Notes under the pieces: model-generated
What the model was told of the DNA's origin: nothing
Databases searched by the model: none
The model's input: only the letters and a program-made list of their open reading frames with translations
Virus record (IMG/VR): IMGVR_UViG_3300025128_004839
Location: 1-35,236 of that record
Reading direction: 5' to 3' (one strand)
From: a virus
Taxonomy: Duplodnaviria > Caudoviricetes
DNA: 35,236 nt
Shown: piece by piece, positions 6,653-34,983 of the stretch
Layout of the letters: each line of letters begins with the position of its first letter
How positions within the stretch are numbered: the stretch's first letter is position 1
Translations under genes and position numbers: made by a program

Positions 6653-7035
6653 AGTCTTATACAGATGATAGGGGGGATCTATACCCTATTAACTTTAACG
6701 AGATACCCTTCCAGCCTAAGCGAATGTTTATAGTCTCTGAAGTACCCAAAGGGGTTAAGAGAGGAGACCACGCACACTTTGAGACAGAACAGTTTTTAAT
6801 TTGTTTAAAAGGGCAGGTTGAAGTTATATTGTACGATGGTTATGAGACTGTTAAAACTGTATTAAATCCAATGCAAGGAGTCTATGTACCTAACCTTGTT
6901 TGGGATTCACAAATCTTTAATACTGAGGACGATATACTTTTAGTATTAGCTTCTACGGACTATGATAGGGATGATTATATCGAAGATCCTGCTGTATTTA
7001 AAGCCCATGCGGTCTTCAAAGGTCTTAAAAAATGA
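6634..7035 (+). CDS. fdtA: FdtA/QdtA family cupin (sugar 3,4-ketoisomerase)
   Basis: DDRGDL, PFQPKRMF, RGDHAH, LLVLAS..YD.DDYI. Confidence 0.85.
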   Translation: MFVESLKSYTDDRGDLYPINFNEIPFQPKRMFIVSEVPKGVKRGDHAHFETEQFLICLKGQVEVILYDGYETVKTVLNPMQGVYVPNLVWDSQIFNTEDDILLVLASTDYDRDDYIEDPAVFKAHAVFKGLKK

Positions 7036-8944: not shown

Positions 8945-8950
8945 TATGCC

Positions 8951-9883
8951 ATGATTACTGTAAACCTAGAGTCTACCCCAGAGATATACGATGATTATAA
9001 GTTGGGCCTAAACCTACTTAAACAGGCAACAGAGGAACACTATGAATACCCTGAAGATGTCACACTCTTCCATGTGTATACAGAAGTTCGTACTCCTAAA
9101 GAGTTGCTTGCTATCAAGTCCTACTTGGCGACTCAAAATTTAAGTAAGACAAAGTTGATCGTCTGGTCTGATTATGATATTTCAGATCAAGAGAATATTC
9201 AACCCTACAAAGATTTTGTGGACTTCAGAGTGTACAACGCCAAAGAACTCGCTCAAGGAACCCCTTTGGAAGGTGTAGAAAGCCACCTAAACACTGGTGG
9301 GGATCGTAACCACTGGATGAGTAGTGGGGTTATGCGCTTTCTAGTGTTGTATAAGTTTGGAGGAATCTACTATGACATGGATATGGTTCTTCTAAGAGAC
9401 TTTAAGCCTATTCTGTCGCAAGATTTTGCTTATCAATGGGGAGGTTCTACCGACTTCGCTAAGGAGCGTAGGTGGGAAGATGATTGCTTCGGCCCCTGTG
9501 CAGCTTTGTTAGGTGCAGTTAAGGGTAGCCAATTTATTGAAGATTGTATGGAGAGGCTAGTCGCAACTCCTCCAACAGGTGGAACGTGTTACGATGAAGA
9601 TATGTTATCGTATGTTTATGCTAAGAGACCCTTTACTGTTTTTCCCTCATCCTTTTTTAATACAGAATGGTTAATTAGTAAAACTGACAAGCCCCTTTCT
9701 CAAGCACTTGATTCTCAATGGTTTGATTCTCCTCTGCAAGATTTTAATCACTTGTTTTTAGAGGCATTCTCTTGGCATTGGCACAACTCTAGCAATAGAA
9801 ATAAAACAGTGGTAAAGGGGTCTAAGTTTGATATGCTTGAAACACTTATGACAGCACGGCTGCGGGAGAGGAACATTATATGA
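8951..9883 (+). CDS. GT32-like DxD glycosyltransferase
   Basis: RFLVLYKFGGIYYDMD motif, WHWHN C-terminal motif. Confidence 0.8.
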   Translation: MITVNLESTPEIYDDYKLGLNLLKQATEEHYEYPEDVTLFHVYTEVRTPKELLAIKSYLATQNLSKTKLIVWSDYDISDQENIQPYKDFVDFRVYNAKELAQGTPLEGVESHLNTGGDRNHWMSSGVMRFLVLYKFGGIYYDMDMVLLRDFKPILSQDFAYQWGGSTDFAKERRWEDDCFGPCAALLGAVKGSQFIEDCMERLVATPPTGGTCYDEDMLSYVYAKRPFTVFPSSFFNTEWLISKTDKPLSQALDSQWFDSPLQDFNHLFLEAFSWHWHNSSNRNKTVVKGSKFDMLETLMTARLRERNII

Positions 9884-10308
9884 GAGTAAAATACATTAAA
9901 CTAAACCCTAATGCAGTGCTTCCCCGGAAAGGAACGGAGAGAGCGGCTGCGTATGATTTGATAGCTATTGAAGATGCGTATATTCCTGTAGGGGAAACCG
10001 TTCTAGTAGGGACTGGTCTGGCGATGGAAATTCCTGAAGGTTGGAAGGGAGAGGTATACTCAAGAAGTGGGTTGGCTTCTCAAGGAATTGTAGTTGCTAA
10101 CTCCCCCGGAAAAATTGATTCAGACTATCGGGGAGAGATTAAAGTCCTTCTTAGAAACAACCGTGTAACTGATCTGGTGGGGATTAAGAAAGGGGATCGC
10201 ATCGCCCAGTTTGAAATTAACCCTGTTCATGACATTGAGTTTGAAGAGTCTGACAATTTAGATTTTACTTCTAGAGGAGTTCAAGGGTTTGGCTCAACGG
10301 GTAAGTAA
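9880..10308 (+). CDS. dut: Trimeric dUTPase
   Basis: AAYDL, SRSGLA, GKIDSDYRGE, GDRIAQ, RGVQGFGSTG motifs. Confidence 0.97.
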   Translation: MRVKYIKLNPNAVLPRKGTERAAAYDLIAIEDAYIPVGETVLVGTGLAMEIPEGWKGEVYSRSGLASQGIVVANSPGKIDSDYRGEIKVLLRNNRVTDLVGIKKGDRIAQFEINPVHDIEFEESDNLDFTSRGVQGFGSTGK

Positions 10309-11443
10309 ACAAAAGATCGTGCTTTGCATGATCGTTAAAAACGAAGCAGAAGTTATCGAAAGATGTTTTGATTCGGTGCGCTCTTTTGTGGATGAGTATG
10401 TGATTTGTGATACAGGCTCCACAGATGGAACGCAGGAGGTCATGAAGAATTACTGGAAGAAGCACAAACTCAAGGGAGAGGTGCATGATCGTCCATGGGT
10501 TTCGTTCTGCCATAACCGACAGGAAGCTTTTGATCTAGGTAAGGGGAGAGGAGACTACATTATGACCATTGATGCTGATGAAGTCTTTGCTCCTTTCGAA
10601 AATAACAGTGCCCAACTAACTAAGAAAGTAATCGCACTGCCTCACTTAAATGCAGATAGGGTAGAAGTTATAACCTCTTACAGTTCCATCCAGTATAACA
10701 GAACTCAACTTTACAAAGATGGGCTAAAGTGGAAGTGGAATTGGCCCATTCATGAAGTGTGTGGGGCCGCTGATGAAACTACAATGGAGTGCTTAAAAAA
10801 CGCTTGCGTGGTTCCTAACTCAGACGGAGCAAGAGCCGCAGATCCTCAACGATACAAGCGTGATGCTCTAGTATTTGAGGAGTGGCTCCTAGACAGGCCA
10901 GAGGACGCGAGAGGGTGGTTTTACTTAGCGCAGTCATACCGTGATTCAGGAGAGCCAAAGAAAGCTATTGAACCTCTTAAGAAATGCATTAAATATAGCG
11001 GCTGGGATGAGGAGATTTATCTAGCGGCTTTACGAATCGGGCGGTATAAAATGGAAGCAGGGGAGTCTTTCGTGAATGTGATGGACGATTTCTTCACAGC
11101 GTACAATTACCGTCCTCACCGATTGGAAGCGTTGCATCCTATTGTCGCTTACTATCGAGCCAAAGACCAATACCATACCGCCATCCTGTTAGGGGAGAAT
11201 GCTTTGAAGCTTCCTTTCCCTGCGGATCGTTTGTTTGTGGAACCAGACGTTTACGAGTGGAGACTGCGGGATGAGTTGGGAGTTGCTTACTATTGGGTGG
11301 GTAGGTATGCAAAATCTATTAGAATTATTAAAGAAGCTTTAGAGAATCCTAGAGCTAATATCCCTGAAGGGGATAGAGAACGATTGCAGAAAAATATCCA
11401 ATTTGCTGAGGAGGCATTAAATGAACAGAAGACAGAGAGTTGA
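10289..11443 (+). CDS. GT2 glycosyltransferase with C-terminal TPR repeats (start uncertain)
   Basis: LCMIVKNE, DTGSTDGT, IDADE, IHE, then RGWFYLAQSY TPR-like helices. Confidence 0.85.
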   Translation: MAQRVSKQKIVLCMIVKNEAEVIERCFDSVRSFVDEYVICDTGSTDGTQEVMKNYWKKHKLKGEVHDRPWVSFCHNRQEAFDLGKGRGDYIMTIDADEVFAPFENNSAQLTKKVIALPHLNADRVEVITSYSSIQYNRTQLYKDGLKWKWNWPIHEVCGAADETTMECLKNACVVPNSDGARAADPQRYKRDALVFEEWLLDRPEDARGWFYLAQSYRDSGEPKKAIEPLKKCIKYSGWDEEIYLAALRIGRYKMEAGESFVNVMDDFFTAYNYRPHRLEALHPIVAYYRAKDQYHTAILLGENALKLPFPADRLFVEPDVYEWRLRDELGVAYYWVGRYAKSIRIIKEALENPRANIPEGDRERLQKNIQFAEEALNEQKTES

Positions 11444-12428
11444 GTACCTGTGGCTTGATGGACGGGATCCATTACCCAAAGTAAGAAGTAAGACGCGCTA
11501 CCTTAATCCCCAAGAACACATTATTGTTCCGTGTTGGAATTTTGATGGAGGTTCTACCGAGCAGGGGACACTAGAAGATTCGGATAGGATGTTGCGTCCT
11601 GTTAGAACTTACACCGACCCCTTTAATGAGGGGGGCTTGTTAGCATTTTGTGAAGTCTGCTACTATGGTGGGGTGCCGCACGAATCCAATACCCGAACGC
11701 ACTTGGAACGCCTCACTAAAGATGTGGAAGGAATCCTCGTAGGGTTTGAGCAAGAAGTTACCTTCATTAACCCTACCGACTATAAACCACTAGGTCTCCT
11801 CCTCAGCCCCCAAGCTCAGGGACAATATTATTGTGGCGCAGGTTGCATGAATGTAATCGGTAGATCTATCATGGAAGAGTTTGAAAAGAAATTGTTAGCA
11901 GCGGGGATTGAGATTGATGGCATTAACGCTGAGGTTATGCCGGGACAATGGGAATGGCAAACTGCTGCTCAAGGCCCTCTTAAGACCTCAGATGATTTGT
12001 GGGTTTCTCGTTACATCTTAGACAGAGTGTCGGAGTACAATCCAGTTATTGTTTCTTATGATCCTAAGCCGCACCCCGAGTTTAACGGAGCAGGTTGTCA
12101 CACTAATTTCTCTACCGCCAAGATGCGGGAGTCGTTTGATGTAGACGATTATGAAGAGCTTGCCGTGCATCTCGAAACTGATCACGCTGAACACATTAAA
12201 GTGTGTGGCGCAGGGATCGAGAAGCGCATGACTGGGGACTGTGAAACTTCGGACTACAAGAAGTTCAGTCTAGCTGTGGCAGACAGAGGTGCGTCAATTC
12301 GCATTCCCAAAAGAGTCAAGGACGAAGGTGAGGGGTACTTCGAAGACCGCAGACCTTGTGCAAACATTGACCCGTATAAGGTACTTTATTCACTAATCTC
12401 TTCGGTAAAAAAGTCAAGCCTTCTATAA
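11421..12428 (+). CDS. glnII: Glutamine synthetase type II
   Basis: EYLWLDG, WNFDGGST, GFEQE, YYCG, GINAEVMPGQWE, NGAGCHTNFST, RGASIRIP, GYFEDRRP. The 335-aa length matches GSII. Confidence 0.92.
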   Translation: MNRRQRVEYLWLDGRDPLPKVRSKTRYLNPQEHIIVPCWNFDGGSTEQGTLEDSDRMLRPVRTYTDPFNEGGLLAFCEVCYYGGVPHESNTRTHLERLTKDVEGILVGFEQEVTFINPTDYKPLGLLLSPQAQGQYYCGAGCMNVIGRSIMEEFEKKLLAAGIEIDGINAEVMPGQWEWQTAAQGPLKTSDDLWVSRYILDRVSEYNPVIVSYDPKPHPEFNGAGCHTNFSTAKMRESFDVDDYEELAVHLETDHAEHIKVCGAGIEKRMTGDCETSDYKKFSLAVADRGASIRIPKRVKDEGEGYFEDRRPCANIDPYKVLYSLISSVKKSSLL

Positions 12429-15570: not shown

Positions 15571-16914
15571 TTGGCCGAGCAAAAGTTTTACAAAGTAATT
15601 TGTAATGAAATTAATTTAGTTCTTCTTCTTAAAAAACTCACCATGCGTGAAGAGAGAAGGACTTATCATGACATAAAGAAGAAGATCGAGAGCTTGGATA
15701 AGCCTATTACGATTGATAGCTATATTAGCTATGTCGTAAAAGCTTTCTTGTACGATGCTGATGAGTTCTTCAAAAACCTCCCTGAAGACAAGGAGGACAA
15801 GGATACCATCACCAGAGCCGTGTATGCTTCTATCATTGAAGCGTATCCTCCCTTCGACCTAGAGTTTGTGTGTGCTGATATTAATAACGGCACTTTCATG
15901 GAGGAGATGCACGAAAGCTTGGCTGCTGTTCTCTCAACTGCTGCACAGGCCGAGGCTCCTCCCAAGAGTCTGAAAGCTATCAAAACTCTGAACGATGTTA
16001 ACAACTTGGAGCGATACCTTTCCAAGAACCTTATCGGACAGGAGCAAGCTGTGAAGGGTCTAGTGGACAGCATGAAGCTCGTAGCCAGCGGACTGTATAA
16101 GAACGCATCCTTCTTCTTCATCGGCCCCACAGGAGTAGGCAAGACCGAACTCGCTAGGCTTGTAGGAAACAGGTACAGCGGTAACTTCTGGAAGGTGAAC
16201 TGTGCGGAGTATGCTCAGGCTCATGAGTACGCGAAACTAATTGGTTCTCCTCCCGGCTATGTAGGTCATAGTGAAAAGAGTTTGATGGCTGAGAAGGCTG
16301 AGAAATCTAATAAGTGGGTAATCCTCTTTGATGAGATTGAAAAAGCTCACACTAAGTTCTATGATTTCCTCCTCTCACTTCTAGATGACGGGACATGTAC
16401 GGATAACATGGGCAGAGTTCTAGACTTCACCGAGTCTATCTTTATCTTTACTTCTAACCAAGGCGTGTCTGACATTCGTGTAGGCAAGAAGCTAGGCTTT
16501 GGTGGGGAAACTGTTTCGGTGTCAGGATCAGAGCAGGAGATCACGCAATCAGTAAAGAAGAAGTTCCCCGCTGAGTTCATGAATCGTATTGATAACTATG
16601 TGTTCTTCAACACACTAGAACCCGAACACCTTAAAAAGATTGCCACTCTTGCTCTCAGTAATATTCCTATCAAGAGACACAAGGCTCTGTTGGATTTCAT
16701 TGTGGAGCATGGCTACTCAGAAGAGTATGGAGCCAGAAACATTAAACGCTTCATTAAGAATGAAGTAGCTACCGTAATTGCTCAAGCTCTCCTAGAGCGA
16801 AGACTTCCAAGTAAAAAAGGAGACCTCTACACCCCGAAGGTTAAGGATGGCAAGCTAACCCTGACCTGTCTTACTGGGGATGAAGAAGAGTTGATCGACC
16901 AAGCCGCAGGGTAG
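15571..16914 (+). CDS. ClpA/ClpB-like AAA+ ATPase with only the second (D2) module
   Basis: LIGQEQAV, GPTGVGKTELA, KLIGSPPGYVG, LFDEIEKAH, FTSN, PAEFMNRID, YGARNIKRFI. Confidence 0.9.
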   Translation: MAEQKFYKVICNEINLVLLLKKLTMREERRTYHDIKKKIESLDKPITIDSYISYVVKAFLYDADEFFKNLPEDKEDKDTITRAVYASIIEAYPPFDLEFVCADINNGTFMEEMHESLAAVLSTAAQAEAPPKSLKAIKTLNDVNNLERYLSKNLIGQEQAVKGLVDSMKLVASGLYKNASFFFIGPTGVGKTELARLVGNRYSGNFWKVNCAEYAQAHEYAKLIGSPPGYVGHSEKSLMAEKAEKSNKWVILFDEIEKAHTKFYDFLLSLLDDGTCTDNMGRVLDFTESIFIFTSNQGVSDIRVGKKLGFGGETVSVSGSEQEITQSVKKKFPAEFMNRIDNYVFFNTLEPEHLKKIATLALSNIPIKRHKALLDFIVEHGYSEEYGARNIKRFIKNEVATVIAQALLERRLPSKKGDLYTPKVKDGKLTLTCLTGDEEELIDQAAG

Positions 16915-26083: not shown

Positions 26084-26166
26084 GAGTCCTATTATACCAA
26101 ATTTTGAGGAAATTTCAAGCGAAATCTCAGATTTATTTTGTTCGGGTTTTGTTCGTTAGGGTTCTG

Positions 26167-26814
26167 TTAGTGGGTGGTGAATCGAACCGTTTTCGGTGCC
26201 ATCCAACATAGCCCACACGATGCACAATTCGCGACCTTCTTTGTTTGCTCTGGACAATCAAAAGACTTTCCCTCGAAACTTTCTTCGGCTGCAAACCATT
26301 TTCCCAACTCCTGCGAATCATTGTTTCGGGAATAACGAACCACGAAGCGATCCGAAAAGCGAAGATTCAAAAGGTGAATAGCTCCACCGATAGGGGAATC
26401 TAATTCCCTTCCAGTATACCCAAAGATACAAAGCTCAGGGTATTCTAGCATCATTTTCTGCCAGAAGTTTACATAATCCAGAGAGTAGAAATCACCCAGA
26501 ACATGCAAGCGAATTACGATCCCTTGCTTGTGCTTTCGCATGAGATAATCAATCTCTAGATGCAATTGATCGGTAAGCCCCTCAGTAGAAAAGCGATGCG
26601 CGAATGGCATATTGTTGCCATAACAATCATTCCAATGGTGGCATGAGGTAGGGCAGGTTTCACGCTCTACTAGGGTAAGACTATAAAGCCTTTTCCCTTT
26701 CCACTTCTTAGCGGTGATTTTGAAACCTAATTTCTTATTACTCGAACCCTTTTTGAGGGTATCGAATTCGTGCGGGAGCTTGATGCTCTTCTGGTATCTT
26801 GTCGAGGTAATCAT
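26167..26814 (-). CDS. Gp88-like Cys-rich phage protein (radical-SAM-like motif)
   Basis: TCPTSCHHWNDCY, IRLHVLGDFYS, GYT, CP..CASCGLC, leaderless start. Confidence 0.7.
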   Translation of the reverse strand: MITSTRYQKSIKLPHEFDTLKKGSSNKKLGFKITAKKWKGKRLYSLTLVERETCPTSCHHWNDCYGNNMPFAHRFSTEGLTDQLHLEIDYLMRKHKQGIVIRLHVLGDFYSLDYVNFWQKMMLEYPELCIFGYTGRELDSPIGGAIHLLNLRFSDRFVVRYSRNNDSQELGKWFAAEESFEGKSFDCPEQTKKVANCASCGLCWMAPKTVRFTTH

Positions 26815-26884
26815 GCGCCTATTATATCATGCCCGTGGGGGGTTGTCAAGTGGTTGCACAAAAAACTTCCACTTTATTTTCGGT

Positions 26885-26945
26885 CGTAAGGTGTTGTCAA
26901 TAAAGGACTTATGGGCGCGGCCCCGGCCCCGAAAAAAAATTTCAA
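26885..26945. repeat. Palindromic element, copy 1
   Basis: TAAG-N17-CTTA starting 26887, then GC-rich CCCCGGCCC and an A-tract. Confidence 0.9.
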
Positions 26946-26964
26946 GCGAAAAGCAGAAAAAAGT

Positions 26965-27104
26965 TGCCTCCCTGTCGGACTTGACCCAGACTGCGGACTC
27001 TCGTCCCCGTTCGAACTCTCGCCCTCATCAAATAGGACTCTCGCTCAGTCGTAGTTTTTCCCACCTTTGCGGGTGTTCTGGAGTATGTCCCCGACAGGGA
27101 AGCA
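26965..27104 (-). ncRNA. Putative 140-nt structured RNA
   Basis: 14-bp closing helix TGCTTCCCTGTCGG/CCGACAGGGAGGCA, inner CCAGA/TCTGG, three CGAGAGT motifs, 3' T-tract. Confidence 0.65.
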
Positions 27105-27109
27105 TTGTA

Positions 27110-27190
27110 TGGTGGAGGTGGAGGGATTCGAACCCTCGTCCTAATAGTTCCCGTGTAGGGTCTTACTAGTCGAACAACCGAAACACCCCC
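27110..27190 (-). ncRNA. Mini-tmRNA: tRNA-like domain only (81 nt)
   Basis: GGGGGTG/CACCTCC-A-CCA acceptor with G3:U70, stemless D-loop ending TTCGA, capped helix 2, GAC linker, GAGGG-TTCGAAT-CCCTC T-arm. Confidence 0.8.
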
Positions 27191-27271
27191 GAAAGGAGAG
27201 CTTGCTTCCCGTGGTTAGCTCACCCACGCTTTCTTTATAGTGGGGAAGGGGCTACCTCCCCCACTCGGACC

Positions 27272-27496
27272 TTACAGCCCTTGGGTTGCCTTATGGGCAG
27301 CCGTAGCCCCCACATGGCGACCTTCGGACCACTCCCGAGGGAGCGCACGACGAAGGCTCTTGTAAGCCTCCAGCGCGTGGTCACATGCTTCCTGAGAAGC
27401 AGTGCCGTCCTTGTAGAGGTCAGCGAAAAGCTCACCGACCTGAATGCTAAGGCCCTGAATCTTGGCCTCAGTCTTGTTTGTGGCGAAATCGCCCAT
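27272..27496 (-). CDS. Hypothetical protein (74 aa), probably co-transcribed with the RNA genes
   Basis: AAGGAG Shine-Dalgarno before MGDFATNK, promoter at 27563-27591. Confidence 0.75.
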   Translation of the reverse strand: MGDFATNKTEAKIQGLSIQVGELFADLYKDGTASQEACDHALEAYKSLRRALPREWSEGRHVGATAAHKATQGL

Positions 27497-27608
27497 AGTA
27501 GTCTCCTTTGCAAAGAGGTTAGAAGTTGAGGGAGTTGAACCCGTCCCTCGTTCGGGTGTATCATTATACCATACTGAGGTCAGCTTGTCAAGCATGGTCT
27601 TCCAAATA

Positions 27609-27851
27609 TTATTCATAGGACTCATCCATTCCGAAGCCAGCAGAAGCGAGAGCGGACTCATCGTCCCAATCCTCACGCGGCTCATCGTCCACATCCCAAC
27701 CCTCATAGAAGGTGTTGAGGTACTTGATAGCTTCCGCGTCCACATCAGGAGCGGGGAGCCCGTTTTCGTGGAGGTAAGACAGAACGCCGTAGAGGTGGTG
27801 AGCAAACTTGCCATCGGACAGGTCCATGACGATATCGAAGGGGTTATTCAT
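27609..27851 (-). CDS. Acidic hypothetical protein
   Basis: Leaderless, C-terminal DDESALASAGFGMDESYE. Confidence 0.8.
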   Translation of the reverse strand: MNNPFDIVMDLSDGKFAHHLYGVLSYLHENGLPAPDVDAEAIKYLNTFYEGWDVDDEPREDWDDESALASAGFGMDESYE

Positions 27852-27896
27852 GCGTGTATTATACCAAAGGTTAGAGGGAATGTCAAGCGTTAGCTC

Positions 27897-27971
27897 TTAA
27901 TTTTTCGGAGGTTTTATTCCGAAGAGGGCTGCGTGACGCACCCAAAAGGAGTAGTTTTTGATTGCTTTCAT
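27897..27971 (-). CDS. Micro-protein (24 aa)
   Basis: TATAAT-N6-ATG, MKAIKNYSFWVRHAALFGIKPPKN. Confidence 0.55.
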   Translation of the reverse strand: MKAIKNYSFWVRHAALFGIKPPKN

Positions 27972-28030
27972 GCCCCTATTATACCACGGTTTTAGCCCAT
28001 TGCAAGAAATACTTTGAGAAAACTTTCTGT

Positions 28031-28093
28031 CGTAAGGTGCTGTGAACACAGGACTTAGGGCCTCGCGCCCCGGCCCCAAAAAATTTTTGCAAG
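28031..28093. repeat. Palindromic element, copy 2
   Basis: TAAG-N17-CTTA starting 28033 plus the GC and A tracts. Confidence 0.9.
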
Positions 28094-28241
28094 CACAAAA
28101 GAGAGAAAAGGTGGGGAGAGTGTTACTGCTTTCCAAGTGGCCGAAGCCAAGCGTTGAGCGGATCGAACACCCTCCCCTAAAAGGTGAGGAGGATCAGTAG
28201 GCTTCGCGTGTCACCTACTGCCTCCCCCCTTCCCAGTGGGC

Positions 28242-28430
28242 CTAGCCCTTGGGGATGTAAGCGTTCAAGCCTACCGTGACGGGCTTACCGTCAACCATCG
28301 CCGTCGTGGAGATGTTGCCACCGCTTGAAGCGACCAGCATCGTCTTACCAGACTTGGACGGGCGAAGAGACACAGGGGCCTCGATTACCAGCGTTGATAC
28401 GCCGTTCGTTTCCTTGATTGAAACATTCAT
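28242..28430 (-). CDS. Small conserved hypothetical protein
   Basis: GAGGT Shine-Dalgarno, PSKSGKTMLVASSGGN..GLNAY. Confidence 0.75.
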   Translation of the reverse strand: MNVSIKETNGVSTLVIEAPVSLRPSKSGKTMLVASSGGNISTTAMVDGKPVTVGLNAYIPKG

Positions 28431-28469
28431 AAAATTACCTCGTAGAGAGAGAAAGGGAAAAGGGGAAAA

Positions 28470-28784
28470 TTAAGCCGACCACTCATCGTGGAGGTCAGCG
28501 TTTACGCAGATATCGCGTTCGATACCCAAGCCAAGCGGGACTTGGATCGACTCAAGCTGCGAGAGGGAGACGTATCCCCACTCAGGCGAACCAAAGCCGA
28601 GATCACACAGGCCGAAGAGGAGCCAGTCCCCGTCTACCTGCTCGGAGCCTTCCACGATCTGCCAACTCTGGGCACCCATGGGGTTGAAGAATCGGACCAC
28701 GATCTTCTTCTCGTCGCAAGGGGTGTCCTCGGTGGAGTAGAGAGCGGGAAGGGCGTTCTTGATCTTTTCAGTGAGTAGTTGCAT
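28470..28784 (-). CDS. DUF2958 family protein
   Basis: LPALYS, VVRFFNP, LFGLCDLGFGSPEWGYVSLSQL, GLGIERD. Confidence 0.85.
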   Translation of the reverse strand: MQLLTEKIKNALPALYSTEDTPCDEKKIVVRFFNPMGAQSWQIVEGSEQVDGDWLLFGLCDLGFGSPEWGYVSLSQLESIQVPLGLGIERDICVNADLHDEWSA

Positions 28785-28815
28785 GTGAGTATTATACCAT
28801 GAAAGGAGGTAGATG

Positions 28816-29238
28816 TCAAGCCTTGAAGGCGCGAATTCCGTCAGGGACGGCAGAAAGGTTCTCGTCGCAATCGTCGAAGAAATAGGTTCGGTGAGTCTCC
28901 TTCAGCATAGACAGGATCTCAGCCTTGTATGCAGGGATCTCGAATCCACGATCACCAACGCAAAAGACATACTCTGCATCAATACCGTAACGCTCCAAGA
29001 GAGTGCGGATAGCGCGGTAGACGATGGAGTTCCTAGCCGTGAGGACATACACACGGTGGCCTTCTTGTTGCACAGTAATAGCGAACTGGACGAGGGACCG
29101 AGGCTTAGACTCCTTGAGGAGCTTATCGGTGTCTGCAAATTCGACATAGCGAGCGTGGCCCTTGGCTGACTCGATTTCTTGTGCAGTAGTCTCGAACAGG
29201 GTTCCGTCGAGATCAAATACGAAGGCTTTCTTTTTCAT
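28816..29238 (-). CDS. HAD-superfamily phosphatase
   Basis: FDLDGTL, LTAR, K, FFDD motifs, leaderless start MKKKAF. Confidence 0.85.
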   Translation of the reverse strand: MKKKAFVFDLDGTLFETTAQEIESAKGHARYVEFADTDKLLKESKPRSLVQFAITVQQEGHRVYVLTARNSIVYRAIRTLLERYGIDAEYVFCVGDRGFEIPAYKAEILSMLKETHRTYFFDDCDENLSAVPDGIRAFKA

Positions 29239-29269
29239 GCGTGTATTATACCAAAGACAGGGGAGGATG

Positions 29270-29392
29270 TCAAGAGATTTTGACGGTTTTTCCTCCGCTG
29301 TTGATCCACCAGTGATACCACTGGGCATTGGTCCAGTAGGCAGAGCAGACAGGGGGGACGGGGAAGATTGCGTTATCGGGGAGAGTGTTCAT
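29270..29392 (-). CDS. Small Trp-rich protein (40 aa, not in the ORF track)
   Basis: TATAAT-N6-ATG, MNTLPDNAIFPVPPVCSAYWTNAQWYHWWINSGGKTVKIS. Confidence 0.65.
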   Translation of the reverse strand: MNTLPDNAIFPVPPVCSAYWTNAQWYHWWINSGGKTVKIS

Positions 29393-29452
29393 GCATATAT
29401 TATACCACAGAATCCGAGAATGTCAAGCGTTAGCTTTAAAAAAACTGAGTGT

Positions 29453-29511
29453 CCTAAGTGCTTGTCAACACAGGACTTAGGGGGCTTCGCCCCGGCCCGA
29501 AATAAAAAAAA
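29453..29511. repeat. Palindromic element, copy 3
   Basis: CCTAAGT-N15-ACTTAGG, TAAG at 29455. Confidence 0.9.
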
Positions 29512-29545
29512 TGCCCCAAGTGCCTACACACAAAGCACTTGGGGC
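29500..29545 (-). terminator. Terminator
   Basis: GCCCCAAGTGC/GCACTTGGGGC 11-bp stem plus T-tract on the - strand. Confidence 0.75.
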
Positions 29546-29558
29546 GATCCGCTAATTT

Positions 29559-29876
29559 CTAGCGGAGAAAAGCCTTGACAGGGGCCGAAGAATCGACATC
29601 AATACCCATCGAAGAACACCACTCCTTATATTCTTCGGACATCCTGCCAAGGTCATATGTTGTATTGTACGTTTCTACTGTGCGACCAGCAGAGGCACGA
29701 ACGGGCGAGGTGGTGACTACCTCACCGTCACCAAACTGGGGATGATTGTATACCTTCCCCGTCAACCGCATTTCCCTAAGTTCGGGAGCTTGGTATGGAT
29801 TAGCTTCCCCGACAATAGCCCACTCTTCAATGCGCGGCGTAAGTTCGTAACAAGCGAAGTAGTCACCGTGATCCAT
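29559..29876 (-). CDS. Conserved phage hypothetical protein
   Basis: NPYQAPE..GKVYNHPQFGDG..TTS, TAATG-coupled start. Confidence 0.75.
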   Translation of the reverse strand: MDHGDYFACYELTPRIEEWAIVGEANPYQAPELREMRLTGKVYNHPQFGDGEVVTTSPVRASAGRTVETYNTTYDLGRMSEEYKEWCSSMGIDVDSSAPVKAFLR

Positions 29877-30187
29877 TAGGCTTCTGCCTCCTTCTTGGCG
29901 TTTTCCTTGCGCCAAGCGTCATTCTCAGCAGCCTTTACCTTTTGCTCCTCACGGGCAAGGACAAGAGCCTTATCGAGGACGTTCTTTAGCTCAACAATGC
30001 GAGCCTCGACATCAGGGCAGAAGAATGTCAACTCTTCCTCGGTCTGATAACCTTTGTCTGAGCCATCCCAAGAGTATTCAAGGATGCCAGCTTTCAGAGT
30101 GAACCATCCGTCCTTCTCTTCTGGGTTCCAAGCGTTCTTAGAGACTGAGGCTTCAAACTTGCCTACGTTGTGCATATCAACTTTCAT
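29876..30187 (-). CDS. Hypothetical protein
   Basis: ORF in the operon. Confidence 0.75.
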   Translation of the reverse strand: MKVDMHNVGKFEASVSKNAWNPEEKDGWFTLKAGILEYSWDGSDKGYQTEEELTFFCPDVEARIVELKNVLDKALVLAREEQKVKAAENDAWRKENAKKEAEA

Positions 30188-30189
30188 AA

Positions 30190-30435
30190 TTAGCCTTCCA
30201 TTTCGTTAGCGTAATCGGTGTAGAAATCATCGAACGCATCACGCTCGGTGTATTCTGGTTCTAGTTCTTCTGCAAGCTCACGCTCGCACTCTTCTTGCCA
30301 AAGCTCGGCAAGGAGTTCTTTGAGTTCATCATCTTCGACGATCTCCTCTTGATGGCCTTGGGCCTCAAGGAGTTCGGCTTCTTGATGGGCGAGGTACTCG
30401 TCGTGCTGGTCGGCACTTGTTTCGATGTCTTTCAT
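30190..30435 (-). CDS. Extremely acidic small protein (81 aa)
   Basis: Leaderless start MKDIETS, very E/D-rich. Confidence 0.75.
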   Translation of the reverse strand: MKDIETSADQHDEYLAHQEAELLEAQGHQEEIVEDDELKELLAELWQEECERELAEELEPEYTERDAFDDFYTDYANEMEG

Positions 30436-30478
30436 GGGTTCCATTATATCAGGTGTTTGGGTGAATGTCAAGGGGTTA

Positions 30479-30676
30479 CTAGCCAAAAATTTCATCTTGG
30501 CAGGACTGGCACATACCAGAGATCTGGTATTCCTTCTCGGAAACCTCATCCTTGAAGGACTTCGCAACACCATCACAGGTGGTGCATAACGCCTCAAGAA
30601 CCATTTGGGGACGGCTCTTGCCAGTGATGGAGGTGAGTAGGGACTCGATTTCGTGGTGTTTCTGAGTAGCTTTCAT
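30479..30676 (-). CDS. Small zinc-finger protein (65 aa)
   Basis: CTTC...EYQISGMCQSCQD, leaderless start MKATQK. Confidence 0.8.
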   Translation of the reverse strand: MKATQKHHEIESLLTSITGKSRPQMVLEALCTTCDGVAKSFKDEVSEKEYQISGMCQSCQDEIFG

Positions 30677-30875
30677 GTGTGTATTATACCAGATGTTTAG
30701 GGGTTTGTCAAGGGGAAGGGGAAGTTTTTTTTCAGTGTCCAGTGGGGTTTCGCCTTTCGGCGGTAGGACATCCCGTGTCTCACGGGCCATCTCTCGCGTG
30801 TGTCATGCCCCTATTATACCACATTTTTCGCCTTTGTCAAGTGTTGGGTCTTGGTTTTTTTCTTTTTCTTATCGT

Positions 30876-30937
30876 CGTAAGTACCTGTCAACAAAGGACT
30901 TAGGGGCTTGCGTCCGGCGCGAAAAAAAATTTGCAAG
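30876..30937. repeat. Palindromic element, copy 4
   Basis: TAAG-N17-CTTA starting 30878. Confidence 0.9.
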
Positions 30938-30940
30938 AAC

Positions 30941-30976
30941 AAAATAAAAAAAGCGTGACCCCTAGGGAGACCACGC
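30941..30976 (-). terminator. Terminator
   Basis: GCGTGG...TCACGC stem followed by T7-A-T4. Confidence 0.75.
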
Positions 30977-31032
30977 CAGTAATATACTGCCCTAGCAGGT
31001 TGTGGATATGACCCCCACAACAGGGCAAAAGA

Positions 31033-31255
31033 GGAAGGCAACGAACAGTGGGACTTACTTTATTACCCACACCCAGCGGCTAATTCTTAGGCATTAGCAG
31101 CGTATTTAACTGTAGTTCTTTTTCACTAGGCGACCCGCACAAAGGCTTCTCTGGCACTAGCCCGTCTTTCTACCCGTGTGCAGTTCGAGGCCCCTTCCAG
31201 TTACCGAAGGGATTACCTGATGCTCTGCCGAGGTTTCGAACCCTCGACACCTTCC
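31033..31255 (-). ncRNA. Putative 223-nt structured RNA
   Basis: Closing helix GGAAGGTG/TGCCTTCC around about six hairpins, no ORF of 60 aa or more on this strand. Confidence 0.6.
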
Positions 31256-31262
31256 AAATTTT

Positions 31263-31356
31263 CAATCCCCCCAAGGGTGAGGTCTAAGCAATCGCTCGCC
31301 TTCTTCCCTTGGGGACGCTCTGGGCCTACATGCTATTTATACTCGCCCAGTCGAGT
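31263..31356 (-). ncRNA. Pistol-like self-cleaving ribozyme
   Basis: ACTCG-ACTGGG-CGAGT (P1), ATAAATAG, GTAG, GCCCAG pseudoknot, AGCG, P3 TCCCCAAGGG/CCCTTGGGGG. P2 is imperfect. Confidence 0.6.
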
Positions 31357-31362
31357 CGGGAA

Positions 31363-31593
31363 CTACTTACCCATGTAGCGGTGGTTCACACCGTTACGGG
31401 TCACGAACTGCCGAGAGTTCATGTAGTGGCGGTTCCACGCCTTCTTGCAAGCGTTGAGCGAACCCGTGTAGGTGTTGCTCTGGCTTTGCAGGTCAAAGAT
31501 GGTATAGACCGCGCTGGACGCGCAACCGTTACCCACCCGAATCATAACAGCGTTCTGGTTCGAACGCACGACGTTGGTGATGCTAGAAAGCAT
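31363..31593 (-). CDS. Hypothetical protein
   Basis: AGGAG Shine-Dalgarno, promoter at 31642-31670. Confidence 0.7.
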   Translation of the reverse strand: MLSSITNVVRSNQNAVMIRVGNGCASSAVYTIFDLQSQSNTYTGSLNACKKAWNRHYMNSRQFVTRNGVNHRYMGK

Positions 31594-31666
31594 AGTTTAA
31601 ATCTCCTATAGGAAGAAAGGGGTTAGTGAATTGGAGAGGACATTATACCATGCCCTCTCCAGTTTG

Positions 31667-32038
31667 TCAAGCCTCTACCGACAATTCGTCAGAGGATTCC
31701 ACGAGGCCGTTGATGACCTGAGCCATCTGCACCTCGATCTCAGTCTTCCGCAGTTCAGCGGTTGACAGCGTAGCCTCAGCGTCAAGGCGTTCGGCTTCGA
31801 TCTTCTCGATCCAAGCGTCATGCTTTGCCACACGGGCGTTGAAGGACTGGGGACCGTCCCCTAGACCTTTCTTTGCTTCACGGATATCCTTCCGCAGAGC
31901 ATCAAGCTCCTCAACAAGAGGGGCTACGGCAGGGTTGCTCATGGCATCCTGCTTCGCTTGCTTCACCTTGAGGCGAGAGAGCTTTGCCTCTGTCTCAGCG
32001 ATGATTTCAGCGGGTGTGCGTTGCTTACGCTCACTCAT
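31667..32038 (-). CDS. Coiled-coil hypothetical protein
   Basis: AGGAG Shine-Dalgarno, promoter at 32100-32128. Confidence 0.8.
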   Translation of the reverse strand: MSERKQRTPAEIIAETEAKLSRLKVKQAKQDAMSNPAVAPLVEELDALRKDIREAKKGLGDGPQSFNARVAKHDAWIEKIEAERLDAEATLSTAELRKTEIEVQMAQVINGLVESSDELSVEA

Positions 32039-32124
32039 GGTTAGTATCTCCTAAAAGATGGAAAAGGTAGTGAGGGACTGTCCCTCGTAATGTCCTCCCA
32101 TTATACCATGGAAGGGGGAGTTTG

Positions 32125-32244
32125 TCAAGCCTTCTTTGTCAGAAGATCTTGGAAATCGCCACAACCTTGGGCGAAGTCCTCTGCGGCTTGCAGAGAGGTG
32201 AAAGTGACAGGAGCAGAGTGGTAACGAACTACGATGAACTTCAT
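32125..32244 (-). CDS. Small protein (39 aa, not in the ORF track)
   Basis: TATAAT-N6-ATG, MKFIVVRYHSAPVTFTSLQAAEDFAQGCGDFQDLLTKKA. Confidence 0.65.
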   Translation of the reverse strand: MKFIVVRYHSAPVTFTSLQAAEDFAQGCGDFQDLLTKKA

Positions 32245-32283
32245 GGGTGTATTATACCAAAAAGGTAGGGGGATGTCAAGGGG

Positions 32284-32418
32284 TTAGTCTGCAAAATCGA
32301 GAGCAATTTCAGCAGCGCAGGACTTGCAGATGATGGATGCGCCCCAGTCATCGCTCACCTCATTGGTTGCGGTGACCTGACCACAGGCATCACACAGTAG
32401 CATCTCTTCCTTGTTCAT
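32284..32418 (-). CDS. Zinc-ribbon micro-protein (44 aa, not in the ORF track)
   Basis: TATAAT-N6-ATG, CDAC...CKSC. Confidence 0.7.
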   Translation of the reverse strand: MNKEEMLLCDACGQVTATNEVSDDWGASIICKSCAAEIALDFAD

Positions 32419-32478
32419 GGGTGTATTATATCACAAAAAAAGTAGGCTGTCAAGGGGGTGGAGTGATTTATTTTCTGA

Positions 32479-32542
32479 CGTAAGTGCTTGTCAACACAGG
32501 ACTTAGGGCATTTCGCCCCGGCCCTTCCCAAAATTTTTCAAG
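32479..32542. repeat. Palindromic element, copy 5
   Basis: TAAG-N17-CTTA starting 32481. Confidence 0.9.
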
Positions 32543-32544
32543 CC

Positions 32545-32703
32545 CTAATCTTCTAAATCCATAATAGTCTGCATGAATTTCCAGATGGTAGGGTAGAGCT
32601 TTTTGAACTCATCCGCAGCTTGATCATTCATCCATGCAACGCCATGCTCCCAGTCAGTCTGGATAGCGTCAGACAGTAGCTCTTGAATCTCTTCAATGCT
32701 CAT
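32545..32703 (-). CDS. Small acidic protein (52 aa, not in the ORF track)
   Basis: ATGA-coupled, MSIEEIQELLSDAIQTDWEHGVAWMND... Confidence 0.65.
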   Translation of the reverse strand: MSIEEIQELLSDAIQTDWEHGVAWMNDQAADEFKKLYPTIWKFMQTIMDLED

Positions 32704-32906
32704 CGGTGAAGACGCTTCATCATTTCCTTAGACTTGGCTTCGAAAGCCTCTTGCCATTCTCCACCCATGGAGATAGCGAAGTTCTTAAGGGTTTGGATCT
32801 GGTCACGACCAGCGTTGTAGGAGCGACTGTCATCGCTCATCATGTAGAACCAATCGGCATAACCGAGTTGGGTGGTGAATTCTTCAAATGTCATTTTTTC
32901 TTTCAT
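32700..32906 (-). CDS. Hypothetical protein
   Basis: Leaderless, DWFYMMSDD.RSYNAG motif. Confidence 0.8.
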   Translation of the reverse strand: MKEKMTFEEFTTQLGYADWFYMMSDDSRSYNAGRDQIQTLKNFAISMGGEWQEAFEAKSKEMMKRLHR

Positions 32907-32943
32907 GTGTATATTATACCAAGTGTTTAGGGGGTTGTCAAGC

Positions 32944-33276
32944 CTAGTCGCAGTAAAATTTCAAATCTTTGTGATCGAAATCATCACGGCCCATCTTCTG
33001 GATCAAAGCCTCCACGACATCGGGGGACTGCCAGCCAGCCACCTGATCCATAGACGTAAGCGGGAGGAAGTTATCATCCTCATCCAACACCGCAACCTCG
33101 TAGGTCGTGGGGAAGTGGTGCGATCCCTCAGGACCAAATCGCTCACCGACCATCCAAGAGGCGTAGTGACCAGCACCAAAGCCGACCGACAGCTTGTAGC
33201 CGTGGTGGGAAAAGGTGAACTGCTTCAGACCAGCGCGAGGGGAGGTGACAGTGATGGTGTTCTCTTTCGTCTTCAT
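32944..33276 (-). CDS. Hypothetical protein
   Basis: Leaderless, GYKLSV..GHY..YEVAV..DQVAGWQS. Confidence 0.8.
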   Translation of the reverse strand: MKTKENTITVTSPRAGLKQFTFSHHGYKLSVGFGAGHYASWMVGERFGPEGSHHFPTTYEVAVLDEDDNFLPLTSMDQVAGWQSPDVVEALIQKMGRDDFDHKDLKFYCD

Positions 33277-33318
33277 GTGTATATTATACCAGAGTTTTGG
33301 GAAATGTCAAGTGCTTTC

Positions 33319-33453
33319 TTAGAAAAAATCAGGAACGCACTGAAGGTAACTGCCAAGGCGAGCAAACAGGATGCCAGCCTCACGGACTACCGCGCCCACA
33401 AAATCGTTGAAGAGGAGGACGAGTGCTATGATTGTGATGTTCTTTGCTTTCAT
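33319..33453 (-). CDS. Small hydrophobic protein (44 aa, not in the ORF track)
   Basis: TATAAT-N6-ATG, MKAKNITIIALVLLFNDFVG... Confidence 0.65.
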   Translation of the reverse strand: MKAKNITIIALVLLFNDFVGAVVREAGILFARLGSYLQCVPDFF

Positions 33454-33624
33454 GTGTGTATTATACCAGAGTTTTGGAGAATGTCAAGGGGAAAAAGCTT
33501 TTTCTGATACGACATTGTTCCGCGTCAGGCAGAGGCTTTGTTCCCCTCGTCTTGTGCGTCTATTATACCACAATCTCAGCCAATGTCAAGCCTTGGGCCT
33601 GTGTTTTTTTGAGTTTTTTTGTGA

Positions 33625-33675
33625 CGTAAGCCCCTGTCAATAAAGGACTTAAGGGCTTCGCCCCGGCCCTTTTTC
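33625..33675. repeat. Palindromic element, copy 6
   Basis: TAAG-N17-CTTA starting 33627. Confidence 0.9.
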
Positions 33676-33764
33676 AAAAAATCCACATAAAAATGCAGAG
33701 AATCCAAATACAGAGAAAATAAATCACCACGCAGGACATGACCCCACGGAAGAAATCAAGTCCA

Positions 33765-34244
33765 TCATCGGGAGTGTTTCGCATATAGCTTCCTCACATT
33801 TTTAATCCAGTGCTGATTCAGTCCCGTAGGATCGTTATCCGCTCCAACGGGGCAGTAACGCTTGCCAAGGAATACCACAAACTCACCCTTAGAACCAGCC
33901 TTGACCCAACGGTCGTAGTTCTTCTGGACAGTGCAAGCACACTCGCCAGCCTGACGGCGATAGCCTCGATCCTTCGCATACTTGCTCAGGCATCCATACT
34001 CACGGCCAGCACGACCATTCTCAGCGTAACGAATAGCTGAGACGTAAGGTGCAAGCTTTGCACGAAGCTCAGGGCGAATGTTCACCTTGATAGCGTCATC
34101 AAAGAGAGCAGCCTTAGCCGTACCGTCTTTCTTGACGATGACATCCCGATAGGTTTGGGCACTAGCAACGCCACCAATGGCGACGATTGCGATGGTAAGC
34201 CAGAGGGCATAGCCCAACAGTGTAGTAGCGATGATTTTGATCAT
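33765..34244 (-). CDS. Exported lysozyme-fold/glucosaminidase-like protein
   Basis: Hydrophobic N-terminus, AIRYAENG (putative catalytic Glu), YCPVGADNDPTGLNQHWIKNV, ATGA-coupled start. Confidence 0.6.
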   Translation of the reverse strand: MIKIIATTLLGYALWLTIAIVAIGGVASAQTYRDVIVKKDGTAKAALFDDAIKVNIRPELRAKLAPYVSAIRYAENGRAGREYGCLSKYAKDRGYRRQAGECACTVQKNYDRWVKAGSKGEFVVFLGKRYCPVGADNDPTGLNQHWIKNVRKLYAKHSR

Positions 34245-34468
34245 AGGGAGCAATCTCCTTCTAGGACTTCGATTTGTTGGATGAGTTCAGCGATGGTGTG
34301 ACCATCCCAATACATCTCATCAGCCAGAGGCAGATATTTGTGCATATTGATACCTGCCACATGGCAAGCGTCTAGGAACTCGTCAAAGGTGAGATCTAGG
34401 CCAAGAGAGGCCAAGTGATCAGCACCTTGGAAGGCGCGTTCGATTGCAGTGTTTTCGTTGATGTTCAT
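34241..34468 (-). CDS. Acidic hypothetical protein
   Basis: Leaderless ORF. Confidence 0.75.
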   Translation of the reverse strand: MNINENTAIERAFQGADHLASLGLDLTFDEFLDACHVAGINMHKYLPLADEMYWDGHTIAELIQQIEVLEGDCSL

Positions 34469-34516
34469 GTGTGTATTATACCAAAGTTTGAGTGAATGTC
34501 AAGAGGAAAGGCCGAT

Positions 34517-34828
34517 TTACTCAGCCGCTGTGCCAAAGCGGTCGATGTAGCTCTGAGGGATAGGCAGAGCATTGTGCTTGCAGTGAGCAAGGTAATCGTC
34601 GTAGTCTAGAGCGACCTTCTGAGCAGCACCTCTAGGCGTGTCAGTTGAGACAAGCACAGAGTTGCCGAAGGGCTCAACACTCACAGAGTAAGCATTGTGC
34701 TTCTTCTCCATGGAGATGTAAAGCTCACCAACCTTGAGGAAGGGAACTTGAGTGATGCCAACGACAGCACCCTTAGGGGAAGAGACGAGACCACGACGGT
34801 CAACAGTGATATTTTGAATTTCTTTCAT
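34517..34828 (-). CDS. Hypothetical protein
   Basis: Leaderless ORF. Confidence 0.75.
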   Translation of the reverse strand: MKEIQNITVDRRGLVSSPKGAVVGITQVPFLKVGELYISMEKKHNAYSVSVEPFGNSVLVSTDTPRGAAQKVALDYDDYLAHCKHNALPIPQSYIDRFGTAAE

Positions 34829-34983
34829 GTGTATATTATACTCTCTGGAGAGGGGTTTGTCAAGTGTTAGTTCTGTTTTTCTTGGGGGCTTTTTCTCTCT
34901 CGTCTTGTGCCCCCATTATACTATATTATCGACCAAATGCAAGCAATACTTGAGGGAAATTTTGAGATTTCTCTATGAATGTG

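What the first reader, a model, noticed from the sequence alone, without database searches (positions are those of the whole stretch)
27110..27190. 81-nt 'mini-tmRNA': a complete tRNA-like domain with the whole mRNA/tag domain missing
Seen: the - strand reads GGGGGTG TTTCGGTTGTTCGA CTAGT AAGA CCC TACAC GGG AACT ATTAG GAC GAGGG TTCGAAT CCCTC CACCTCC A CCA. Established: tmRNA's tRNA-like domain has a G3:U70 pair and A73 (AlaRS identity), a D-loop without a stem ending UCGA, helix 2a, a GAC linker and a canonical T-arm. Together these form the SmpB and EF-Tu binding surface, and all are present here. Helix 2, which normally leads to a few hundred nt of pseudoknots and tag frame, is capped after about 28 nt. 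The gene is not circularly permuted. Inference: it is a phage RNA that could be alanylated. It might sequester SmpB and block trans-translation, rescue stalled ribosomes without a degradation tag, or work with a separate message RNA. Tagless tmRNAs are known from some protist mitochondria. I do not recall a phage example but cannot check.
Basis: partly seen in the sequence, partly recalled or inferred. Interest (0 to 1): 0.92.

Follow-up and report, generated by a model that had tools for sequence, protein, structure and literature searches.

The report
Phage tagless mini-tmRNA gene
A marine phage carries a real 81-base gene that copies only the tRNA-like end of the bacterial ribosome-rescue RNA (tmRNA), without its tag message; one such phage RNA is already published, the form proves common in phages, and it likely competes with the host's rescue-and-tag system while charged with alanine.

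Summary
Confirmed. Window 27110-27190(-) is a complete tmRNA tRNA-like domain (Rfam RF00023, 63.2 bits) whose 312-position message region is replaced by a short capped arm. It is not a tRNA, an att remnant or an assembly gap. It is not new in kind: mycobacteriophage DS6A has a published 'TLD only' gene (83 nt, same layout), and this scan noted the kind before in at least seven other genomes. New here is the breadth and the constraint. There are 259 distinct sequences in viral and metagenome contigs, 191 of them 81-83 nt, and unannotated copies in cultured Streptomyces phages; the 2025 tmRNA database lists nine 'standard, no CDS' genes. Helix 2a covaries. With the acceptor stem left free in the search, G3.U70 and A73 held in 111 of 111 while neighbouring pairs varied. 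Carriers encode no SmpB (0 of 30), so the RNA would use the host's. Best reading (0.5, inferred): an alanine-charged competitor that enters stalled ribosomes with host SmpB, adds no tag and so lowers ssrA tagging. No expression data. Interest 0.5.

The parts
27110..27190 (-). mini-tmRNA gene (tRNA-like domain only), 81 nt including encoded CCA
   Evidence: RF00023 63.2 bits, E 3.9e-23; sequence
27184..27190 (-). acceptor stem 5' strand; G3 at 27188
27110..27120 (-). acceptor stem 3' strand (27120-27114, U70 at 27116), discriminator A73 (27113), CCA (27112-27110)
   Evidence: G3.U70 and A73 in 111 of 111 homologues of the unconstrained search
27170..27183 (-). stemless D region with GG and UCGA; U18 and G20 correspond to E. 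coli tmRNA U17 and G19, which contact SmpB
   Evidence: E. coli numbering read from L543; contacts from PMC8363625 passages
27141..27169 (-). capped arm: helix 2a (27169-27164 with 27146-27141), purine-rich internal loop, CCC/GGG hairpin with variable apical loop (27157-27153)
   Evidence: covariation; listed population variants inside the gene fall only in the apical loop
27138..27140 (-). GAC linker (E. coli G333-A334-C335 equivalent)
27121..27137 (-). T arm, 5 bp + UUCGAAU loop
   Evidence: compensatory pairs
27563..27591 (-). perfect sigma-70-type promoter-like site (TTGACA-17-TATAAT, extended -10), inferred to drive the cassette
   Evidence: 12 of 12 match; 7 sites found vs 1.1 expected; one of about 12 repeated promoter copies
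27272..27496 (-). 74-aa ORF of unknown function (P0001), usual upstream neighbour in this phage clade only
   Evidence: 555 homologues, no Pfam or NCBIfam family; mini-tmRNA within 1.5 kb downstream in 6 of 10 related viral loci
27191..27270 (-). two hairpins directly upstream (swappable RNA row)
   Evidence: fold; 67 other letters inserted at 27196-27201 in X15 and X18
26960..27109 (-). separate stem-closed structured RNA followed by a T run; not part of the tmRNA
   Evidence: z -4.92; no Rfam match; interior replaced in X18; no match in other carriers

Best explanation
This is a phage gene for a tagless mini-tmRNA that likely is charged with alanine, borrows the host's SmpB and EF-Tu, enters ribosomes stalled on broken mRNA in place of the host tmRNA and, having no message, would add no degradation tag. 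Shown: the gene, its fold by covariation, the retained alanine and SmpB-contact bases, its spread in phages, and the lack of a phage SmpB. Inferred, step by step: (1) host RNA polymerase transcribes it early from the consensus promoter; (2) host tRNA-processing enzymes cut it out, adding CCA where it is not encoded (encoded in 96 of 192); (3) AlaRS charges it through G3.U70 and A73; (4) it binds SmpB and EF-Tu and takes the empty A site, as a truncated tmRNA does in a crystal structure; (5) it accepts the nascent chain, translocates and leaves an empty A site, and host back-up routes (ArfA/ArfB-type release or drop-off) finish the job; (6) by using up SmpB and stalled ribosomes it lowers ssrA tagging, which spares phage proteins or shifts the host to tag-free rescue.
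For: Complete TLD. With the acceptor stem unconstrained, 111 of 111 sequences with a closed stem keep G3.U70 and A73, while pair 4 is G-C 82, C-G 17, U-A 9, A-U 3 and pair 6 is U-A 75, C-G 18, A-U 16: selection on the AlaRS determinant itself. Helix 2a pairs 2-6 are 0.889 paired in 158 clusters vs 0.433 shuffled, maximum 0.480 of 1000; slid controls give 0.25-0.42. D-loop GG in 90 of 91 and UC/UU before GAC in 86 of 91 where the pattern did not force them. No SmpB in 0 of 30 carriers, 9 of them at least 90% complete plus 4 cultured genomes; no full-length RF00023 match in those 30. A truncated tmRNA binds SmpB, EF-Tu and the ribosome (PMC8363625, PMC3985003 passages). The DS6A form, or a similar molecule, inhibits host tmRNA in E. 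coli (PMC11915505, PMC4131195). In three cultured Streptomyces phages it lies inside tRNA clusters.
Against: [quoted passage not shown] A peptidyl-RNA with no message may trap ribosomes rather than free them, and carriers bring no release factor (PF00472 0 of 46) or Pth (PF01195 0 of 41). Close relatives deviate: L550 and L551 have a GAA linker, L551 has U73, and L588 lacks the D-loop GAC; the patterns could not see such forms, so the 111 of 111 applies to the GAC class only. Many phages carry full-length tmRNA (402 of 18,146 genomes, PMC9004378), which suggests phages can gain from more tagging, not less. Consensus promoters are not enriched upstream family-wide (14 vs 12 antisense of 104). 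Host unknown; no transcript seen.
Confidence: 0.5

Rival explanations
1. Pure SmpB sponge: the RNA binds host SmpB (and perhaps EF-Tu) off the ribosome, destabilises host tmRNA and shuts trans-translation down without taking part in peptidyl transfer.
For: Published inhibition independent of chargeability (PMC4131195); SmpB-contact bases kept; no phage SmpB; strong early-type promoter in this phage.
Against: Does not itself explain invariant G3.U70 and A73 among covarying neighbours, nor the narrow length (191 of 259 at 81-83 nt) and conserved arm motif.
Confidence: 0.2
2. Rescue booster or alanine tailer: the RNA helps clear stalled ribosomes, for instance after host toxins cut mRNA or tRNA, possibly by repeated rounds that add a short alanine tail on the 70S ribosome, as message-less mitochondrial tmRNAs are thought to help with incomplete mRNAs.
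For: Alanine identity invariant; position in tRNA clusters of cultured phages; message-less mitochondrial tmRNA co-occurs with SmpB (PMC11915505); alanine tails are a known rescue product of RqcH (PMC8012679).
Against: The only reported experiment shows inhibition of tmRNA; no release route encoded by carriers; tRNA within 1.5 kb in only 6 of 78 viral loci.
Confidence: 0.13
3. Anti-defence decoy: the RNA is bait for host defence proteins that sense or cut tmRNA or tRNA, such as the SmpB-like domains predicted in CoCoNuT restriction systems.
For: CoCoNuT systems carry SmpB-like domains predicted to bind tmRNA (PMC11090510 passages); patchy presence in unrelated phages and no fixed gene partner; it sits in a swappable row of small RNAs in an early-type cassette array.
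Against: Those domains are predictions; hosts of the carriers are mostly unknown; nothing here links carriers to such systems.
Confidence: 0.1
4. One half of a two-gene tmRNA that works with a separate message RNA.
For: A structured RNA follows 7 nt after the CCA.
Against: Helix 2 is closed on itself with covariation, leaving no strand to pair with a partner; the downstream RNA is not found beside other copies, its interior is swapped in X18, and a scan for its motif gave 1 unrelated coding match.
Confidence: 0.04
5. Not a functional RNA of its own: att-site remnant, one-off deletion, assembly artefact or odd tRNA-Ala.
For: tmRNA genes are integration sites, and phage Shandong1 holds a 3' fragment beside its integrase; one atypical copy (L081) lies beside a serine-type integrase; Shaeky has an integrase 1.5 kb away.
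Against: Both TLD ends are present; tyrosine integrase in 7 of 41 carriers, nearest 3.3 kb away; none among 51 window ORFs scanned; 259 diverged sequences with compensatory changes; no anticodon arm and no conserved apical loop; independent contigs span it.
Confidence: 0.03

Closest known systems
'TLD only' (standard, no CDS) tmRNA of mycobacteriophage DS6A (JN698994.1, 28478-28560; PMC4131195 Table 2; PMC11915505)
   Same: Phage gene, 83 vs 81 nt, standard order, G3.U70, A73, helix 2a + purine-rich internal loop + CC/GG hairpin; 49 identities over 84 columns; no SmpB in the phage.
   Different: DS6A has a CAC linker and no encoded CCA, and scores 43.2 bits; this one has GAC and CCA, 63.2 bits, and lies in a promoter-cassette array of a marine phage whose complete relatives are about 130 kb.
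Standard one-piece bacterial tmRNA (RF00023)
   Same: Acceptor stem, D region, helix 2a, GAC linker and T arm.
   Different: No pseudoknots, resume codon, tag frame or stop codon; 81 vs about 350-375 nt.
Message-less organellar tmRNAs (jakobid and oomycete mitochondria, RF02544; ~65-bp Mallomonadaceae plastid genes; PMC11915505)
   Same: TLD without tag frame.
   Different: Those replace the only tmRNA of the organelle and are mostly permuted; this one would coexist with a full-length host tmRNA.
Full-length and permuted phage tmRNAs (e.g. Melnitz, PMC9004378; Tunturi_4, SM1, QDWS595 seen)
   Same: Phage-encoded, uses host SmpB.
   Different: They keep a tag frame and ARAGORN finds them; ARAGORN misses the mini form.

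Membership tests
TLD-only (standard, no CDS) tmRNA, DS6A kind | Both TLD ends in standard order, matching RF00023 above threshold | tested here: met
   63.2 bits, model 1-374
TLD-only (standard, no CDS) tmRNA, DS6A kind | G3.U70 and A73 alanine identity | tested here: met
   sequence; 111 of 111 in homologues
TLD-only (standard, no CDS) tmRNA, DS6A kind | Helix 2 closed by a short cap, no tag frame | tested here: met
   29-nt arm, covariation; same layout as DS6A
TLD-only (standard, no CDS) tmRNA, DS6A kind | Expressed, processed, inhibits host tmRNA | not testable with these tools
   no RNA holder listed; bench test needed
Standard tmRNA (full trans-translation) | mRNA-like domain with resume codon, tag frame and stop | tested here: not met
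   312 model positions absent; no ARAGORN tmRNA call
Standard tmRNA (full trans-translation) | SmpB-contact bases (E. coli U17, G19, A334) | tested here: met
   mapped from L543 using PMC8363625; binding itself untested
Permuted two-piece tmRNA | Acceptor piece upstream of a coding piece that starts with the 5' TLD strand | tested here: not met
   RF04321 20.9 bits, E 0.57, gathering 47; TLD complete in standard order
tRNA-Ala | D stem and 5-bp anticodon stem with 7-nt loop and NGC anticodon | tested here: not met
   no ARAGORN or RF00005 call; apical loop mostly 3-5 nt and variable
attP remnant of ssrA | 3' fragment only, beside an integrase | tested here: not met
   both ends present; integrase not adjacent; contrast Shandong1

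The most novel reading that the evidence does not exclude
A widespread, overlooked phage RNA family performs template-free alanine addition on stalled 70S ribosomes with host SmpB, a tagless or alanine-tailing form of trans-translation that reroutes the host's quality control, with its own conserved arm (helix 2a, A-rich loop, CC/GG hairpin) acting on the ribosome.
Probability: 0.2. Interest if true: 0.85.

Novelty: new member of a known kind. Interest (0 to 1): 0.5.

Why it matters
The kind was known from one phage and a few organelles: nine 'standard, no CDS' genes among 97,179 in the 2025 tmRNA database. Here it is hundreds of diverged phage genes that ARAGORN misses and that are unannotated in the GenBank records examined. 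The strict alanine identity suggests an active role at the ribosome rather than a passive sponge. That bears on an open question, namely what message-less tmRNAs do. Copies in cultured Streptomyces phages (LuckySocke, BRock, Shaeky) make it testable by deletion in laboratory hosts.

Tried and rejected
No whole genome is held for the window, so companion genes were tested in relatives and other carriers only. No RNA holder listed among 24 runs; not evidence either way. The genome-contig scan (about 3,400 estimated) is mostly false positives: 97 of 109 distinct hits are 3' ends of full-length tmRNAs, 9 unclear, 3 mini-like; of these L268 (67.7 bits) lies on a 1.6-kb contig of a MAG that also has a full-length tmRNA. 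In the viral relaxed set, 4 of 106 were such 3' ends and a fifth near-identical one was dropped with them; 11 were unclear, of which 10 were kept. BLAST hits in Tunturi_4, SM1 and QDWS595 were called permuted tmRNAs by ARAGORN and Shandong1 is a 3' fragment. A fixed-length metagenome pattern found 0. A 401-genome cyanobacterial pattern search gave matches in 66 genomes; the 2 checked were full-length 3' ends and the rest were not checked, so the cellular copy noted in e1-8364294 was neither confirmed nor refuted. The window's Clp-type ATPase is ClpA/B-like, not ClpX, and occurs in 4 of 46 carriers: no family link. No conserved protein partner across 78 loci; 121 of 564 neighbour ORFs were scanned, giving mostly head, terminase and replication genes. 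ESM Atlas gave nothing for P0001. Mao et al. 2009 is not held; the supplement of PMC11915505 gave 0 hits for four terms. No covariance model, structure or complex prediction was run.

Full report
Observation. The minus strand at 27190-27110 reads as reported. Rfam RF00023 covers it end to end at 63.2 bits, E 3.9e-23, with 312 model positions answered by 17 nt. ARAGORN finds 8 tRNAs in the window and nothing here. The RNA has a 7-bp acceptor stem with G3.U70, A73 and encoded CCA, a 14-nt D region ending UUCGA, a 29-nt arm (6 bp, 3x3 internal loop, 3 bp, 5-nt loop), the GAC linker and a canonical T arm. Folding energy alone is unremarkable (z -1.39). Contigs from runs X1 (26600-27328), X2 (26686-27377) and X18 (27052-27196) span it; the differences listed inside the gene in X15 and X18 are at 27155 and 27157, both in the apical loop, while both flanks are swapped in X18 (the table was cut by 21 rows, and X1 or X2 may be the source sample).

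Setting. The window is phage DNA from marine metagenomes by the run labels. From about 25,700 on it is an array of short cassettes, each behind a consensus TTGACA/TATAAT site, which I read as an early region (inference). The cassette runs promoter (27591-27563), a 74-aa ORF, two hairpins, the mini-tmRNA, a separate structured RNA (z -4.92) and a T run. Two complete relatives of about 130 kb (G008, G009) share the Clp-type ATPase and the RNA. Of 11 viral loci with the downstream 215-aa gene, 4 have the RNA just upstream, 2 have too little upstream DNA, and none has an ARAGORN tmRNA in the stretch fetched. Of 10 loci with the 74-aa ORF, 6 have it within 1.5 kb downstream. It is thus common but not universal in the clade, and no full-length gene was seen in its slot.

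Family. A strict pattern gave 24 viral loci of 78-89 nt. A relaxed one gave 117 loci, about 550 estimated, and 106 distinct sequences with the window's, of which 91 are clear, 11 unclear and 4 are 3' ends of full-length tmRNAs; 5 were dropped. A metagenome scan added 100 distinct sequences (115 loci, about 700 estimated). With the last two viral scans the union is 259, of which 191 are 81-83 nt and 17 are 64-69 nt. In 158 clusters at 90% identity, helix 2a pairs 2-6 are 0.889 paired against 0.433 in shuffles. That control ignores relatedness, and my parse picked the best-pairing register; slid controls gave 0.25-0.42, and RNAalifold on 64 sequences found the same helix with changes on both sides in 30-41 sequences per pair. 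An A[AG]NCC motif after helix 2a is in 88 of 131 main-class arms and 3 of 97 cellular full-length genes (the 97 are mostly actinobacterial, and E. coli ssrA has a similar stretch), which hints at one spreading family rather than many fresh deletions. Neighbours vary freely. Cultured Streptomyces phages LuckySocke, Shaeky and BRock carry it unannotated among tRNA genes. Cellular hits were nearly all false positives.

Key test. My first patterns forced G3 and U70. Two further scans left the acceptor stem free (158 loci, 117 distinct). In 111 the stem closes, and all 111 keep G3.U70 and A73 while pairs 4-7 change in a compensatory way; the other 6 do not close, and 5 of them look by eye like 3' ends of full-length genes. 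G3.U70 is the AlaRS determinant of tmRNA (PMC3985003 passages). Limits: these scans required the D-loop GAC, the arm motif and the GGAC linker; clade members outside that pattern exist, with a GAA linker (L550, L551), U73 (L551) or no D-loop GAC (L588).

Partners. SmpB 0 of 30 carriers, full-length tmRNA 0 of 30 (permuted genes were not sought), RF-1/ArfB domain 0 of 46, Pth 0 of 41 (Pth2 not tested), tyrosine integrase 7 of 41 and never adjacent. One atypical copy lies beside a serine-type integrase (L081). Many records are fragments.

Mechanism. A TLD fragment with SmpB mimics a whole tRNA, and a truncated tmRNA has been crystallised with SmpB and EF-Tu on the ribosome (PMC3985003, PMC8363625 passages). 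The bases that contact SmpB in E. coli (U17, G19, A334) have their counterparts here. The simplest reading that explains both the SmpB face and the invariant alanine identity is a charged competitor that enters non-stop ribosomes, accepts the chain and cannot tag it (0.5). ArfA-type rescue is a back-up that trans-translation normally represses (PMC8012679 passages), so less tagging would shift rescue to tag-free routes in hosts that have them. Against: the published inhibition did not need charging, the exit step is unexplained, and many phages carry full tmRNAs. Rivals: pure sponge 0.2, rescue booster or alanine tailer 0.13, anti-defence decoy 0.1, two-gene tmRNA 0.04, non-functional 0.03. 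Everything after the gene and its conservation is inference.

What is known. PMC4131195 (passages) lists 'DS6A (TLD only)' and says a similar molecule, chargeable or not, strongly inhibits tmRNA. PMC11915505 (passages and Results section whole; supplement searched, 0 hits) counts 9 'standard, no CDS' and 79 phage sequences, and says the DS6A form inhibited tmRNA in E. coli. The primary paper (Mao et al. 2009) was not available. I located the DS6A gene at 28478-28560, about 9.6 kb from its integrase, with the same arm. Also seen: PMC9004378 and PMC11090510 (passages); 10.64898/2026.10.08.757657 (term search, no hits). Eight literature searches showed no paper describing the wider phage family; the library lacks most subscription journals and bioRxiv supplements. 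The scan's own notes record the kind in at least seven other genomes; I had found the DS6A precedent before reading them, and they are not independent support.

Verdict. Real, conserved and well supported as a TLD-only tmRNA gene; a new member of a known kind, not a new kind. The value lies in the family's size, the alanine constraint and the cultured carriers. Interest 0.5.

Noticed in passing
window 31302-31356 (-): Pistol self-cleaving ribozyme (RF02679, 43.3 bits, gathering 34.5) right after a 76-aa ORF and followed by about 250 nt of non-coding, hairpin-rich DNA with a T-loop-like motif at 31232-31255.
   Followed up: no
window 26960-27109 (-): Stem-closed structured RNA of about 140 nt with several GNRA-like hairpins, z -4.92, no Rfam or cultured-phage match; interior replaced in run X18 while the closing stem is kept.
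   Followed up: partly
window 26090-34870 (-): About 12 repeated sigma-70 consensus promoters and 7 copies of a 43-nt GC-rich spacer repeat, one per gene cassette. The weak Chlorobi-RRM hit at 29500-29569 lies next to one copy and is below threshold.
   Followed up: partly
window 27272-27496 (-): Conserved 74-aa protein (555 homologues, about 70% identity, no family) heading the RNA row in this clade.
   Followed up: partly
window 15571-16914 (+): Single-AAA ClpA/ClpB-like ATPase; the phage also has RecA, GroES, dUTPase, dCMP deaminase and a sugar-modification gene block at 360-12428.
   Followed up: partly
L545 5440-5790: A relative has a row of at least three related GGGGAGGGG...CCCCACCTTC stem-closed hairpin cassettes upstream of its mini-tmRNA.
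   Followed up: no
L146 1123-1470 (phage Tunturi_4): An RF-1-domain (ArfB-like) gene lies directly before a permuted tmRNA gene that the record does not annotate.
   Followed up: no
L256 (Ca. Peribacteria MAG) and L254: 70-75-nt TLD-like sequences in cellular assemblies (46.4 and 40.7 bits, below threshold) beside full-length tmRNA genes elsewhere in the same genomes.
   Followed up: partly
L035, L036, L038, L067, L588: Variants with an altered D-loop and arm junction, and a 64-69-nt class with a plain hairpin arm (e.g. L025, L027, L089).
   Followed up: no
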